Source: Eledone cirrhosa (Eukaryota). From it: 64,000 bases of DNA. This document shows, in pieces, positions 1,305 to 44,556 of this stretch (the first letter of the stretch is position 1; each line of letters begins with the position of its first letter). The position numbers and the translations under genes were made by a program. The stretch spans positions 98,456,001-98,520,000 of the forward strand of contig OZ024742.1 in NCBI GenBank assembly GCA_964016885.1, read 5' to 3'. A model generated the notes under the pieces. The model was not told the origin of the DNA. It did not search any database and saw only the letters and a program-made list of their open reading frames with translations.

Positions 1305-1436
1305 AAATATGGTTTTGTAAATATAGTTTCCATTTATTTAATATCGTAAATATACTCCAAATACTTGTTGAGTGCTTTTATATCAGTTATAAATATTTAC
1401 TCGTTGTTAACCCAACAATTTAAATAAAACTTTGCA

Positions 1437-2350
1437 TATATATATATATTTATATATATATATATATATATATATATATATATATATATTTATATATATA
1501 TATATATATATTTATATATATATATATATATATATATATATATATATATATATATTTATATATATATATATATATATTTATATATATATATATATATATT
1601 TATATATATATATATATATATTTATATATATATATATATATATTTATATATATATATATATATATATATTTATATATATATATATATATATATATATATA
1701 TATATATATATATATATATATATATATATTTATAATATATATATATATATATATATATATATATATATATATATATATATATATATATATTTAGATATAT
1801 ATATATATATATATATATATATAGATATATATATATATATATATTTATATTTATATATATATATATATATATATTTATATATATATATATATATTTATAT
1901 ATATATATATATATATATATTTTTATATATATATATATATATATTTATATATATATATATATATATTTACATATATATATATATATATATATTTATATAT
2001 ATATATATATATTTATATATATATATATATATTTATATATATATATATATATATATATATATATATATATATATATATATATATATATTATATATATATA
2101 TATATTTATATATATATATATATATATATTTATATATATATATATATATATTTATATATATATATATATATATATATATATTTATATATATATATATATA
2201 TTTATATATATATATATATATATATATTTATATATATATATATATATATATATATATATATATATATATATATATATATATATATATATATATATATATA
2301 TATATTTATATATATATATATATATATATTTATATATATATTTATATATA
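1437..2350. repeat. ~900-bp (TA)n microsatellite with TTTA interruptions
   Basis: Direct reading. Confidence 0.95.
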
Positions 2351-2501
2351 GATGAGATTCTACAGGACTAGAACTGATGATTTCTAAAGAATGAAACAGT
2401 TCTAGTCCTGTAGAATCTCATCTATATTAAAACTGTTATACTCCGCAATGTATTGAGTACCTTACTTACTGTGGTTACCTCCGATTCAACCCGGAATAAC
2501 G
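2347..2501 (+). mobile_element. Short PLE fold-back remnant (family A) with HHR core at 2374-2417
   Basis: gatgagattctacaggactagaactg is inverted against cagttctagtcctgtagaatctcatc. Core CTGATGA-t ttc taaa gaa t-GAAACAG..CTGTA; the 5' strand of stem I is lost at the inversion point. Flanked by (TA)n. Same family at 14821-14999. Confidence 0.75.
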
Positions 2502-2761
2502 TATATATATTTATATATATATATATATATATATATATATATATATATATATATATATATATGTGTAGATAAATCTACCAAGAGTTTACGGTAGTGTCTA
2601 ATCCGTATGAAGAACTCAATGTAATCCGGATATCATGGAAAGAAGAGATGCAATGAAAAATCACTTTCGGTGAAAGATAAACGGAATACAGAGTCAAGAT
2701 AAAATATTAAAAAAATAATGAATAAAACAATGAAACAGTTCCTTATATTAAAGAAAAAAAG

Positions 2762-2915
2762 TTCATTATTTAACGATCGTTTCTAGGATATATATGTGTT
2801 AGAATTGGCATGCATATTCAACAGATCTATGTACAAAATTATACAAAATTATACAAACTATCAAAATTAAATATACATACCAACACATATATATGCCGTC
2901 TTCAAAAATAATGAA
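2762..2915 (-). ncRNA. Hammerhead ribozyme with long stem II; core C3U variant
   Basis: Minus strand: ttcattattt-TTGAAGA-long stem II-GAAAC gatc GTT-aaataatgaa, with a perfect 10-bp stem I. Confidence 0.6.
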
Positions 2916-5140
2916 ATATATTTATTGATAATAACAACAATTCAAAATTACAGGTCTGTTTGGGAACAGAGTTCAAATTGACCAATGAAAATACAAAAGG
3001 TTTATACAGTTAGGTGTGTGTATATATATGTAAGTAACTTCGTTCACAGATATGCATAAAGATATATGTTCACATGCATACGCATGCCAAAAAGATGTAT
3101 GTAAATACAAAAATTAAAGGCTAATGTCTCTGTATGTCTATAATCTACAGATAAAATACGTATACACATAAATATAAAATAAATATATACACAGATTCAT
3201 ATACTCACACATATACGTACATTCACACACACACGCGCGTATACGCATAAACATACACACAACCACGAACATACATACACACACACACCCCCACACACAT
3301 ATATATGTGTATATACTATTATCATAAGCATATGGACATTAATGCGCGCACATAAACACTGCCACACATATTTAGATCCAGATACAGAAAGTGGGTGGGG
3401 GGAGAGGTCAGTATTCACCGGTGTCAGCAGACTGCCTATTTATAAATGTATCTATAAATTTAGAGATAAAAAGAAAAGAAAAAGAAAAAAGAAATATATC
3501 AAGAAAAAATATATATATATATATATATATATATATATATATATATATATATAAACAAGTAAAATATAAAATATACATCGATATACATAAACACATACAT
3601 ATACATACACACACCATATAAATACACATACACATACACACACGCATACATATAGAGACACATACATATACACATATAAATACATAGACATATACACATA
3701 TACACACATATATATATATACACACACATACACGCATACATATATATATACATTCACAACACACATACATATATATATATATATATATATATATATATAT
3801 ATATATATATACACATACATGGATGTATGTATATACGCATTGTATGTATATACGCATACATGGATGTGTATGTATGTGTATATATGCGTATATGTATGTG
3901 TGTATGTGTGTGTGAGTATATATATGTCTATATATGTATATATATATATATATATATATATATATATATATTTATTATATGTGTGTGTGTGTGTATATAT
4001 ATCTTTATATATGTGTATGTGTATGTGTGTGTGTGTATGTGTGTATATATATATATATGTGTATATATATATATATATATATATATATATATATATATAT
4101 GTATATATGTGTGTGTGTGTATGTGTATATATATATATATACATTTATATGTGGGTATGTAAGTGTATGTGTGTATATACATGAGTGTGTTTATATATGT
4201 GTGTAGATATGTGTATATATATATATATATATATATATATATATATATATATATATATATATAAATGTATGTGTGTTGTGAATGTATATATATATATGTA
4301 TGCGTGTATGTGTGTGTATATATATATATGTGTGTATATGTGTATATGTCTATGTATTTATATGTGTATATGTATGTGTCTCTATATGTATGCGTGTGTG
4401 TATGTGTATGTGTATTTATATGGTGTGTGCATGTATATGTATGTATTTATGTATATCGATGTATATTTTATATTTTACTTGTTTATATATATATATATAT
4501 ATATATATATATATATATATATATATATATATATATATATATATATTTTCTTGATATATTTCTTTTTTCTTTTTCTTTTCTTTTTATCTCTAAATTTATA
4601 GATACATTTATAAATATGCAGTCTGCTGACACCGGTGAATACTGACCTCTCCCCCCCACCCACTTTCTGTATCTGGATCTAAATATGTGTGGCAGTGTTT
4701 ATGTGCGCGCATTAATGTCCATATGCTTATGATAATAGTATATACACATATATATGTGTGTGGGGGTGTGTGTGTGTATGTATGTTCGTGGTTGTGTGTA
4801 TGTTTATGCGTATACGCGCGTGTGTGTGTGAATGTACGTATATGTGTGAGTATATGAATCTGTGTATATATTTATTTTATATTTATGTGTATACGTATTT
4901 TATCTGTAGATTATAGACATACAGAGACATTAGCCTTGAATTTTTGTATTTACATACATCTTTTTGGCATGCGTATGCATGTGAACATATATCTTTATGC
5001 ATATCTGTGAACGAAGTTACTTACATATATATATACACACACCTAACTGTATAAACTTTTTGTATCTTCATTGGTCAATTTGAACTCTGTTCCCAAACAG
5101 ACCTGTAATTTTGAATTGTTGTTATTATCAATAAATATAT

Positions 5141-5294
5141 TTCATTATTTCTGAAGACGGCATATATATGTGTTGGTATGTATATTTTATTTTGATAGTT
5201 TGTATAATTTTGTATAATATTGTACATAGATCTGTTGAATATGCATGCCAATTCTAACACATATATATCCTAGAAACGATCGTTACATAATGAA
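5141..5294 (+). ncRNA. Hammerhead ribozyme with ~115-nt stem II domain
   Basis: ttcattattt-CTGAAGA-cggc atatatatgtgttgg...ctaacacatatatat ccta-GAAAC gatc GTT-acataatgaa. Stem III is the palindrome aacgatcgtt. Confidence 0.7.
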
Positions 5295-5822
5295 CTTTTT
5301 TTGTTTAATATAAGGAACTGTTTCATTGTTTTATTCATTATTTTTTAAATATTTTATATATATATATATATATATATATATATATATATATATATATATA
5401 TATATATATATATATATATATATATATATATATATATATATATATATATATATATATATATATATATTTATATATATATATATACATATATATTTATATA
5501 TATATATATATATATATATATACATATATATTTATATATATATATATATACATGTATATTTATATATATATATATATATACATATATATTTATATATATA
5601 TATATATATACATATATATTTATATATATATATATATATACATATATATTTATATATTTATATATATATATATATATATATATATATATATATATATATG
5701 AATATAGACATAGAATATTCGAAAATATTCTGTATGTTTATAATAAACATTTTGAAGACCTAATCGCTATAGAATAGAATACGTCACGTATTACAATTAG
5801 ATTCTCGATAAAAGCAAGGGAA

Positions 5823-5865
5823 GTAATCTACGCGTTTCATTCTCGTTAGAAATCATCAGGACTAC
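5823..5865 (-). ncRNA. Minimal type I hammerhead ribozyme, repeat unit 1
   Basis: Minus strand: gtagtc-CTGATGA-t ttct aacg agaa t-GAAAC gc GTA-gattac. Confidence 0.85.
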
Positions 5866-43347: not shown

Positions 43348-43499
43348 TTCTCCACACACTGGGAAATTGTCAGCAGAGCAGCACCATACAATTTCATGAG
43401 CTCTGCCTCATGGAACTTTACCATATCATAAGTGCACCCCTCGAGATCATCAACAACAGAGCAGAATCGGTGATAAACTGCAGACACAAATTACAGTAG
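43348..43499 (+). pseudogene. GIY-YIG C-terminal fragment (Naiad-like)
   Basis: FSTHWEIVSRAAPYN/(frameshift)ELCLMELYHIISAPLEIINNRAESVINCRHKLQ*, which aligns with IFWKKVSSASSY..CNLCLNEKFTIISNLDPIINRRTDLFSICLHK of the large PLE. Confidence 0.75.
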
Positions 43500-43858
43500 T
43501 CTTTTTTCGGGTGGAAATTGACAGAGACCCAAAATCCATAAACTGTGTCTCCCTGCACCAAACCATAACACTCCGCTGGGTAGGCTGCGCAAATAAACCT
43601 CTGTACACCAACTATGCATCTCAGACCCTGCCTGAATTGACAATAGTAAAGTAGCACTCACAAATTAGTAATGGAAAACCACCATCATGTGAACGGGTAA
43701 TAAGCCCTTTGGGGACGACTATTCAAACACCGGCCAGAGTTACTCCCCTTGTTCTGTGTCAATACCAACATGTATGTTTGAACTAAGAATGAAATTTGAT
43801 GTATGTATCACTTTAAAACCCCTTCTGTGTCCTGTACTGAACACTCTGTAGTTTTCTA

Positions 43859-43899
43859 TGCCCTTGAGAAGCCCTTTTTGGGCGAAACGTACGTAGGTA
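43859..43899 (+). ncRNA. Hammerhead-like motif with variant core (CUUGAGAA)
   Basis: tgcc-CTTGAGAA-gccc ttttt gggc-GAAAC gtac GTA-ggta. Stem III is the palindrome acgtacgt. Confidence 0.6.
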
Positions 43900-44056
43900 C
43901 TTTTATATAAACATGTTCTGACCGTATATATTCTCCTTTGTAATCCTTTCATTTACATATATATATATATATATATATATATATATATATATATATATAT
44001 ATATTATAATGAAATGACAGGAGGCTGGATTTGTGTAAGTCCTTGAAAGGTTTATT

Positions 44057-44114
44057 ATACTATGATCATTTCAATGACCGGGTTCCGTATGAATCCGGTG
44101 ATATCATCAGGTAT
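44057..44114 (-). ncRNA. Type I hammerhead ribozyme
   Basis: Reverse complement of 44271-44328. Confidence 0.75.
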
Positions 44115-44270
44115 TCGAAATATAATACGTGAATGTAATAGATAAAATCCATGGAGCTGAAAATCGAGGGCGACCGGCTGAGGTTGAAGGAACAGAATAG
44201 CGGTCGCCCTCGGGTCCTCGATTTTCAGCCCCATGAATTTTATCTATTACATTCACGTATTATATTTCGA

Positions 44271-44328
44271 ATACCTGATGATATCACCGGATTCATACGG
44301 AACCCGGTCATTGAAATGATCATAGTAT
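44271..44328 (+). ncRNA. Type I hammerhead ribozyme
   Basis: atac-CTGATGA-tatc accgg attcatacggaac ccggt catt-GAAAT gatc ATA-gtat. Stem III is the palindrome atgatcat. Confidence 0.75.
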
Positions 44329-44556
44329 AATAAACCTTTCAAGGATTTACACAAATCCAGCCTCCTGTCATTTCATTATAATATTTAACTCCGTAATAGC
44401 ACCACCAACTACAAAAACAAAGACGGTTGAACTGCTTTACGTTGAGTACTATCTATATTGTTGCATTACGATTGACCATACGGAATAGACCAGCTCTATA
44501 CAGTGGTGAACCTCAAACCTGAATATATATATATATATATATATATATATATATAT

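What the first reader, a model, noticed from the sequence alone, without database searches (positions are those of the whole stretch)
1352..44450. Shared RCUC...GAGY tail hairpin marking where the short arm of each fold-back stops
Seen: downstream of the HHR or fold-back, unrelated families carry ACTC...GAGT or the compensated GCTC...GAGC, usually as (t/a)GAGtRc(t/c). Examples: tatactcc..ttgagtgct (1351-1376), tatactcc..ttgagtacc (2437-2461), 2614-2694(-), 8074-8099(-), 14941-14964, 19190-19219, 23248-23271(-), tatactcc..tagagtgct (41006-41037), gctctg..tagagcac (42600-42622), 43202-43273(-), aactcc..ttgagtact (44386-44450). In the fold-backs, only one arm has this tail; the other ends about 0-15 nt before the RCTC and joins (TA)n. 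Inference: a conserved cis-signal (RT binding or priming site, or 3'-end processing element) that fixes where cDNA synthesis or integration starts. I do not know of a description of this motif.
Basis: partly seen in the sequence, partly recalled or inferred. Interest (0 to 1): 0.78.

Follow-up and report, generated by a model that had tools for sequence, protein, structure and literature searches.

The report
Twin RNA hairpins set retrotransposon ends
In one group of telomerase-related jumping genes, a small bulged hairpin occurs twice in a row and each inserted copy ends about seven bases before one of the two, which likely marks where the enzyme starts copying and would explain the long-noted 'tail' on one side of these insertions.

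Summary
Confirmed and extended. All 11 cited sites exist. The motif is a bulged hairpin: RCUC, a covarying 1-6 bp stem, a variable loop, a 2-nt U-N bulge on the 3' side, then GAGY. It belongs to Hydra-clade Penelope-like elements. It comes as a pair, H1 and H2, between the hammerhead and the ORF. The short arm of a fold-back ends 5-8 nt before H1. The long arm ends 6-9 nt before H2, which the window never shows because it is not copied. The tail is therefore the H1-H2 interval. Among blind-found fold-backs of motif families, 51 were long/short, 2 long/long and 1 short/short. H2 was predicted and found for four more window families; one family has a divergent H2. Two hairpins occur in 19 of 24 testable metagenome Hydra loci, and the motif is in published coral and sea-cucumber consensi. 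Likely mechanism (inferred): the RT binds each hairpin and starts target-primed copying at a UAU-like triplet just 5' of it, one start per target strand. The tail and internal initiation are known; I found no description of the paired motif.

The parts
1354..1373 (+). Hairpin H1, family A; long end at ~1436. A hammerhead-like core starts at 1248. H2 and a Hydra-type ORF follow in read-through copies elsewhere.
2440..2458 (+). H1, family B (first upper pair mismatched), in fold-back ~2348-2501 with hammerhead core at 2374
2614..2694 (-). H1 with 63-nt insert, family G; fold-back ~2563-5354, short end ~5355; H2 and Hydra ORF found elsewhere
8074..8099 (-). H1, family I; long end ~7998; H2 not tested
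13451..13484 (-).
14943..14961 (+). H1, family B, fold-back ~14820-15004, hammerhead cores at 14877(+) and 14871(-)
19191..19216 (+). H1, family J; small fold-back starting at ~19110; no (TA)n at the long end; H2 not tested
23248..23271 (-). H1, family H, fold-back ~23199-23396; H2 seen in L141
36561..41100 (.). Head-to-head fold-back of Hydra-clade family C: minus arm 36561-39508 (short end), plus arm ~39488-41100 (long end)
37705..39508 (-). 5'-truncated Hydra-clade RT-endonuclease ORF (aa 222-821 of the intact 821-aa protein; frame break near 37967)
40904..40958 (+). Hammerhead core of family C (mirror copy ~36610-36664 on minus)
41009..41033 (+). H1, family C; short arm stops just before its position at 36561; tail runs to ~41092-41102, where H2 would follow
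42600..42620 (+). H1, family D, fold-back ~41898-42658, hammerhead core at 42512; H2 seen in one locus (L357)
43202..43273 (-). H1 with 52-nt insert, family F; short arms end at ~43956 and ~44556; H2 not tested
44388..44447 (+). H1 with 40-nt insert, family E, fold-back ~44004-44523, hammerhead core at 44275; H2 found elsewhere, with no Hydra ORF in the six flanks read

Best explanation
Hydra-clade Penelope-like elements carry two copies of a bulged hairpin between the hammerhead and the ORF, each inserted arm ends 5-9 nt before one of them, and the hairpins likely act as RNA binding sites that set where the reverse transcriptase starts. Shown: the order hammerhead, H1, H2, ORF; short end before H1; long end before H2; nearly always one end of each kind per fold-back; both arms from the same source; 2-4 nt of TA-like overlap at the junction. 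Inferred: the endonuclease cuts both strands of a (TA)n tract. Protein bound to each hairpin would place the UAU-like triplet 4-8 nt upstream into an RT active site, where it pairs with the cut strand's 3' end. One strand is extended from the H2 site and copies the tail and H1; the other is extended from the H1 site. The two cDNAs run 5'-ward through the uncleaved hammerhead and are joined head to head. The template would have to be an uncleaved read-through or circular RNA. One complex, possibly a dimer, holding both hairpins of one RNA would explain the pairing of ends; that step is the weakest.
For: Endpoints (start of the TA run): family C -7 (19 of 31 short ends) and -7/-6 (35 of 39 long ends); family H -8 (14 of 19) and -6 (27 of 32). 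L204 family -7/-8 and L230 family about -5/-6. Four predictions of an unseen H2 held. Fold-back end types 51 long/short, 2 long/long, 1 short/short. Arms share non-majority variants at 0.0124/nt within 20 loci against 0.0009/nt between loci. The tail-less arm is the longer one in L181, L185, L188 and the window; in L181 and the window neither arm holds the other's whole sequence, which excludes a plain snap-back copy there. Loop length runs from a few to ~100 nt while the upper stem covaries, so recognition is of a folded single strand. Clade-wide conservation. Precedent: purified Poseidon PAc cuts and extends both strands, starts inside the RNA at two sites that match the genomic tail ends, needs RNA 3' of the start, and uses uncleaved RNA.
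Against: No binding or priming was measured. G-U against A-C counts in the upper stem are 11 to 7, which does not decide the strand or RNA against DNA. Predicted folding is weak (-3 to -8 kcal/mol for the short hairpins) and the MFE often differs from the bulged form. Family B has a precise long end but only a divergent, unbulged hairpin at the H2 place. Of 24 metagenome loci with a hammerhead upstream, 3 show no hairpin and 2 show one. Hydra-1_Obim has no clean copy by eye. The PAc template shown in Frangieh's Fig. S1B lacks the motif by eye, so the precedent is from another clade. Shared arm variants could also come from two RNAs of one locus or from later gene conversion.
Confidence: 0.7

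Rival explanations
1. The hairpins are recognised in DNA form by the GIY-YIG endonuclease, which trims a fold-back or tandem cDNA intermediate at the TA-like site 5-9 nt before each hairpin; the ends are cut sites, not RT starts.
For: Craig 2021 ascribes the tail to endonuclease-mediated resolution. Frangieh cites that the D. virilis Penelope endonuclease needs the tail for recognition. Junctions fall at TA-like triplets, the enzyme's own target. Wobble counts do not exclude DNA.
Against: In L181 and the window the arms cannot come from one snap-back cDNA. Independent cutting would give many long/long and short/short pairs; 3 of 54 are seen. In PAc the genomic ends coincide with measured RT starts.
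Confidence: 0.15
2. The hairpins guide cleavage or termination of the RNA 5-9 nt upstream, giving two RNA species whose 3' ends are then copied by ordinary end-initiated TPRT.
For: Sharp endpoints fit defined RNA ends. Family C has AATAAA shortly before the long end.
Against: AATAAA is not general among tails. Strict pairing of one long and one short end would need two RNA species chosen together. PAc starts internally whatever the RNA 3' end.
Confidence: 0.08
3. The hairpins serve another purpose (translation control just upstream of the ORF, RNA packaging, or help for the hammerhead), and the ends are set only by nearby TA-like sequence pairing with the target.
For: H2 ends 15-49 nt before the ORF in the 19 two-hairpin loci. 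AT-rich sequence precedes each hairpin.
Against: TA-like triplets are common in these AT-rich UTRs, yet ends cluster at one offset from each hairpin in every family tested. Family E keeps both hairpins with no Hydra ORF in the six flanks read.
Confidence: 0.05
4. Self-priming on an antisense template, as proposed for rotifer Penelope elements, makes the inverted repeat, and the hairpins act on that antisense strand.
For: Palindromic centres are common in the fold-backs; model in Arkhipova 2013.
Against: Unequal arms that need two starts; sense-template TPRT shown for PAc.
Confidence: 0.02

Closest known systems
Hydra-clade Penelope-like elements (Craig et al. 2021, PMC8557442)
   Same: Protein motifs, C-terminal endonuclease, hammerhead in the pLTR, (TA)n target, partial tandems, inverted 5'-truncated copy, tail on one end.
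   Different: The passages and sections read describe no conserved hairpin ('hairpin' 0 times, 'GAGC' 0 times in the main text), although the motif sits in the paper's own consensi. Tails here are about 60-170 nt, not 30-40. The family C unit is 3.86 kb, not under 3 kb.
Poseidon PAc internal initiation and tail (Frangieh et al. 2024, PMC11167929)
   Same: Two internal starts bracket the tail; both target strands are cut and extended; a stem-loop is involved; uncleaved RNA is the template.
   Different: [quoted passage not shown] Here two sequence-conserved hairpins lie 3' of each start, in the 5' UTR, with 2-4 nt of TA overlap.
3' stem-loops of LINEs/SINEs and the R2 3' UTR (recalled, no call)
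   Same: An RNA structure bound by the element's RT licenses TPRT, also in trans.
   Different: Those structures lie 5' of the start and are copied into each insertion. Here the hairpin that marks a start lies 3' of it and is not copied, and there are two.
L1 twin priming (recalled, no call)
   Same: Both target strands prime cDNA, giving an inversion.
   Different: L1 arms copy different parts of one RNA from a chance internal site. Here both arms copy the same 3' region from two fixed sites.
Telomerase template boundary element and DRT10 stem-loop 5 (bioRxiv 10.1101/2025.10.16.682844)
   Same: A stem-loop next to a short template with a primer-alignment segment, in a related RT; the predicted Hydra protein's top five structural matches are TERTs.
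   Different: Those elements lie 5' of the template and stop the RT. These lie 3' and would set the start; H1 is copied through by the long arm.
Metazoan non-LTR retrozymes (PMC7229834, PMC7761336, bioRxiv 10.64898/2026.07.22.740005)
   Same: Short hammerhead-bearing repeats thought to use PLE proteins.
   Different: The 2020 review states that they show no conserved motif pointing to their autonomous partner. The hairpin pair is such a motif for ORF-less copies here (family E; L074 array, which lacks a canonical hammerhead core).

Membership tests
Hydra-clade PLE | DKG motif changed to DKT | tested here: met
   SDKTNN in the 821-aa protein (definition)
Hydra-clade PLE | N-terminal RWK motif | tested here: inconclusive
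   Family C has RWT; family G has RWR and L357 has RWK
Hydra-clade PLE | CxCX5C linker before a C-terminal GIY-YIG domain | tested here: met
   CNCRIKNKC followed by the endonuclease region, read by eye; Pfam does not detect the domain
Hydra-clade PLE | No CCHH motif; CxxC and CxH beside the conserved E and N | tested here: met
   CNLC and CLH present, no CCHH, read by eye
Hydra-clade PLE | Hammerhead in the pLTR and (TA)n insertion | tested here: met
   Core sequence CTGANGA..GAAA and (TA)n junctions; cleavage not tested
Hydra-clade PLE | Generally shorter than 3 kb | tested here: not met
   Family C unit is 3,864 nt; the paper gives this as a tendency
Hydra-clade PLE | Falls in the Hydra clade of the RT tree | not tested
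   No tree built; reference proteins were only readable in the supplement
PLE 'tail' | [quoted passage not shown] | tested here: met
   51 of 54 fold-backs of motif families
PLE 'tail' | 30-40 bp long | tested here: not met
   Most motif-bearing tails are about 60-170 nt
PLE 'tail' | Bounded by two RT start sites | not testable with these tools
   Needs an in-vitro assay; genomic ends are consistent
Neptune-type PLE (first considered) | DKG, CX2-5CxxC linker and CCHH | tested here: not met
   Absent from the motif-bearing protein; present in the separate 773-aa ORF of L185, whose relatives end in other tails
Known Rfam family | Match at gathering score over the hairpins | tested here: not met
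   L183 4900-5250: five matches, all E above 1, none over H1 or H2; whole window: no listed match reached gathering, 150 of 225 rows shown
Telomerase-type template boundary element | Lies 5' of the template and stops the RT | tested here: not met
   Hairpins lie 3' of the copied region; H1 is copied whole in long arms

The most novel reading that the evidence does not exclude
A single Hydra-clade PLE complex, likely a dimer, grips two identical bulged hairpins on one RNA and fires two reverse transcriptases at once from the two strands of a cut (TA)n tract, each using a 3-nt telomerase-like alignment segment. The pair would be a portable 'start here' signal, conserved across animal phyla, enough to mobilise any RNA placed 5' of it, and the explanation of the PLE tail and inverted pLTR.
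Probability: 0.4. Interest if true: 0.88.

Novelty: new variant of a known kind. Interest (0 to 1): 0.76.

Why it matters
How Penelope-like elements, the sister group of telomerase, choose their start and why insertions carry a one-sided tail and an inverted copy has been open for two decades; one element has been studied in vitro and no conserved RNA signal was reported in the papers I could read. A defined, covarying, clade-wide motif at a fixed distance from both ends turns this into a simple mutational test. It gives an RNA ligand for a first PLE structure, a rule to set element boundaries and to assign ORF-less repeats to their helper, and possibly a cis-signal for RNA-templated insertion into (TA)n. 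By rough scaling (109 sites in 1.32 Mb) this genome holds on the order of 250,000 such ends.

Tried and rejected
First filed the element as Neptune; rejected after reading the Hydra definition. A link of one motif family to a Neptune-like RT (L099) was a nested neighbour. Search for the motif at the 5' UTR of the Neptune-type family failed as a test: the loci did not reach its 5' end. Bulges of 0, 1, 3, 4 or 5 nt and 5'-side bulges give no upper stem. Wobble counts did not fix the strand. 5' breakpoints of full-length copies are scattered around H1-H2 and neither support nor refute a circular template. Homodimer fold of residues 1-480: no verdict. Sequence search of PDB found nothing. Viral contigs hold no relative. 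A first alignment was too diverse for the locus scan. The first pattern for family D found nothing; a looser one found one locus. MAFFT misaligned the hairpins, so no covariance model was built and pairs were counted by anchored position. Look-alike sites at 22826(+) and 62067(-) were rejected (mispaired base, or no U bulge and beside an ORF fragment). The Lunse 2017 paper is not held. No earlier findings of the scan came up.
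Full report
VERDICT. The motif is one of a pair of bulged hairpins that mark both 3' ends of Hydra-clade Penelope-like element (PLE) insertions. The positions are shown; the role as RT start signals is inferred.

SETTING. The window is 32% G+C, has no N, and is rich in (TA)n runs. 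It lies in a 3.0-Gb animal genome; size and repeat make-up suggest a cephalopod, which I did not test. It holds many head-to-head inverted repeats with hammerhead cores between (TA)n runs. The largest, 36561-41100, carries a 5'-truncated RT-endonuclease ORF. Intact copies elsewhere encode 821 aa in a 3,864-nt unit. The protein has DKT, a CxCX5C linker, no CCHH, and CxxC/CxH near the end, which is the definition of the Hydra clade in Craig 2021, section 11. Its predicted fold (pLDDT 79) matches TERT structures first (ranks 1-5, E about 1e-7, TM 0.26-0.33).

CHECK OF THE OBSERVATION. All 11 sites exist. To avoid circularity I took 120 stretches of 10 kb at round-number positions and found fold-backs by shape alone: 189 ends with an inverted partner, of which 106 had a tail on the partner arm, 33 were symmetric and 50 had no (TA)n within 200 nt and were set aside. 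RCTC..GAGY starts within -6..+25 of the short end in 51 of 106 tails and 16 of 34 single-linkage clusters; shuffled tails give 2.3 (max 8 of 300). One cluster merges two families through a chimeric copy. A motif-first scan of 132 blind stretches gave 177 hits, 109 with (TA)5 25-140 nt downstream; six control stems gave 36-72 hits with 0-7 so placed.

THE MOTIF. Between RCTC and GAGY there is an upper stem, and it forms only with a 2-nt bulge on the 3' side: mean 3.1 bp per cluster against under 1 bp for other 3' bulge sizes and up to 1.0 for 5' bulges. In an independent set of 63 distinct RCTC..GAGY from metagenome loci, chosen with no pairing asked, the first bulge base is U in 58, and upper pairs 1-3 form in 57, 41 and 44 (shuffled 45, 27, 25; 0 of 2000 shuffles reach them); other bulge sizes show nothing. 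These shuffles ignore relatedness. The outer pair switches between G-C (61) and A-U (19) of 87. The usual form is GCUC-Y..R-UN-GAGC-ACU. The loop runs from 2 to about 100 nt. Predicted stability of short copies is low, so protein would have to hold the shape.

THE SECOND HAIRPIN. In read-through tandem copies of family C a second copy (H2) starts 7 nt after the long end, just before the ORF. Measured from the start of the TA run, ends lie at -7 of H1 (19 of 31) and -7/-6 of H2 (35 of 39) in family C, and at -8 (14 of 19) and -6 (27 of 32) in family H. Thirty loci picked by a distant Hydra N-terminus fell into 10 groups; where ends could be mapped they were -7/-8 (L204 family), about -5/-6 (L230 family) and -7 of H1 (L222). 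Two groups have a non-purine at position 1, three loci were too broken to judge, and family B has a sharp long end but only an unbulged GCAC..GTGC hairpin at the H2 place. I then predicted H2 for four window families whose continuation I had not seen. The patterns asked only for CTC after the tail end, so they find only such copies; the test is the offset and the unasked-for 3' half. Family A: 39 of 44 matches at one place, 12 of 12 loci read have a full H2, 11 with a Hydra-type ORF start. Family E: 80 of 81 have GCTC at one offset, 6 of 6 read have a full H2, and no Hydra ORF lies in their flanks. Family G: 308 matches, 99 of the 100 listed at one place; 3 of 6 loci were read to the 3' half, which closes a 116-118-nt hairpin before a Hydra ORF. 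Family D: none with the first pattern, one locus with a looser one, with a 1-bp-stem H2 and a Hydra ORF. Families F, I and J were not tested.

BEYOND THIS GENOME. A scan of metagenome contigs gave 77 Hydra-type loci, the best 80 of 252 relatives, in 60 DNA families. The strict motif is in 29 of 50 regions 5' of the ORF, 3 of 50 on the antisense strand, and 14 of 519 windows inside ORFs; many misses are inversions, truncations or 1-bp stems. Of 24 loci with a hammerhead core 140-260 nt before the ORF, 19 have two hairpins, 2 one and 3 none; in the 19, H1 starts 35-67 nt after the core's GAAA, H2 44-81 nt after H1, and the ORF 15-49 nt after H2. Of 25 points where such regions stop matching other copies, 15 lie within -4..+4 of a hairpin start; most others are divergence between families. 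By eye, in the six Hydra consensi of Craig 2021 File S7: Hydra-2_Amil (coral) and Hydra-2_Ajap (sea cucumber) have a perfect H1 after the hammerhead, Hydra-1_Ajap has both hairpins at its 5' end, Hydra-1_Crog has degenerate copies, Hydra-1_Amil stops about 30 nt after the hammerhead, and Hydra-1_Obim has no clean copy. Three diagnostic 9-mers occur 6 times in the whole 584-kb supplement, 4 in Hydra consensi and 2 in other contexts. In this genome seven motif clusters link to Hydra ORFs and three motif-less clusters to a Neptune-type ORF.

HOW THE ARMS ARISE. Fold-backs of motif families are 51 long/short, 2 long/long, 1 short/short; 17 further symmetric ones could not be assigned to a motif family. 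Independent choice per arm would give about half symmetric. In 20 family C fold-backs the arms share 77 non-majority variants in 6,234 nt, against 126 in 138,592 nt between loci, and differ at 0.8% against 2.2%: one source, though conversion is not excluded. Either arm can be the longer; in L181 and in the window neither arm holds all of the other, so two separate starts are needed there. Junctions keep 2-4 nt that read equally as element or as (TA)n, ending 4-6 nt before the hairpin.

MECHANISM. Shown: positions, pairing of ends, common source, overlap. From the literature: the Poseidon protein PAc cuts and extends both strands, starts inside the RNA at two sites that match the tail ends, needs RNA 3' of the start, uses uncleaved RNA, and is predicted to be a dimer. 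Inferred: each hairpin binds the protein and holds a UAU-like triplet in an RT site for the cut (TA)n strand; the H2 start gives the tailed arm and the H1 start the short arm (0.7). One complex on one RNA is plausible but less sure (0.4). Rivals: endonuclease trimming of a DNA intermediate (0.15), RNA processing (0.08), a by-stander role (0.05), antisense self-priming (0.02).

WHAT IS KNOWN. The one-sided tail and the inverted copy are described (Craig 2021; Arkhipova 2013), and internal initiation is shown for one Poseidon element. I found no account of a conserved or paired hairpin in eight full-text searches or in Rfam. Seen: Frangieh 2024, parts 1-2 of 4, text of Fig. S1 and Table S1 (Fig. 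S2 and the GenBank file not read); Craig 2021, passages, sections 11 and 20, supplement parts 1, 2, 52, 53 of 59 and one search; Cervera 2014, part 1 of 4; Li 2026 preprint, parts 1-3 of 5 (supplements closed); passages of PMC7229834, PMC7761336, PMC3846280 and the DRT10 preprint. Not seen: Lunse 2017, Arkhipova 2006, Pyatkov 2004, Repbase entries and most subscription papers; any of them could mention the motif. LINE stem-loops and L1 twin priming are recalled.

SCORES. Interest 0.76. Novelty: new variant of a known kind, an undescribed paired cis-signal behind a known but unexplained feature.

Noticed in passing
window 60575-61047 and 63398-63690; L099 1002-2900: An abundant fold-back family with a hammerhead core and a 58-60-nt tail that lacks the motif but has GTTTC..GAAAC at its two ends; in L099 the same hammerhead region follows a YVDD-type RT with a CxxC/CCHH endonuclease. 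It may have its own paired signal.
   Followed up: partly
window 5690-6782: 310-bp tandem unit with a canonical hammerhead (palindromic stem III), then folded back: retrozyme-like. Its 34-nt tail lacks the motif and links to a Neptune-type ORF.
   Followed up: partly
L074 480-3700: 615-bp tandem array without a Hydra ORF or canonical hammerhead core, with two hairpins per unit: a possible non-autonomous passenger.
   Followed up: partly
L213, L215, L226, L227 (family B, 5' of ORF): The H2 place holds an unbulged GCAC..GTGC hairpin; the long end is still sharp. The copepod consensus has a similar GTGC half.
   Followed up: partly
L351-L356: Family G has both hairpins interrupted by long structured inserts (63 and ~100 nt); several read-through copies lie 6-7 kb apart in tandem.
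   Followed up: partly
L185 7681-9999 (-); L308-L332: Neptune-type PLE with intact ORFs of about 796 aa and further A/C-rich element sequence at least 600 nt upstream; its 5' end was not reached.
   Followed up: partly
window 61500-62340 (-): Decayed Neptune-type endonuclease fragment.
   Followed up: no
window 55620-56230: 3' end of another non-LTR element (RTE/R2-like C-terminus by eye) flanked by (AAT)n runs.
   Followed up: no
window 21565-21983, 31512-31615, 32636-32833, 16709-16775: A dispersed SINE-like family with a tRNA-like box (GGATTTGAACTC).
   Followed up: no
L181, L182, L213, L221, L225, L228: Several full-length copies have their 5' break inside or beside H1-H2, as if copying stalled after one round; the sample was selected and too small to test.
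   Followed up: partly
window 6806-7950, 22384-22670, 27417-27737, 62487-62685: A further (TA)n-associated family with a hammerhead core at 7770(-) and a 45-56-nt tail holding a perfect small hairpin; no RT linked.
   Followed up: no
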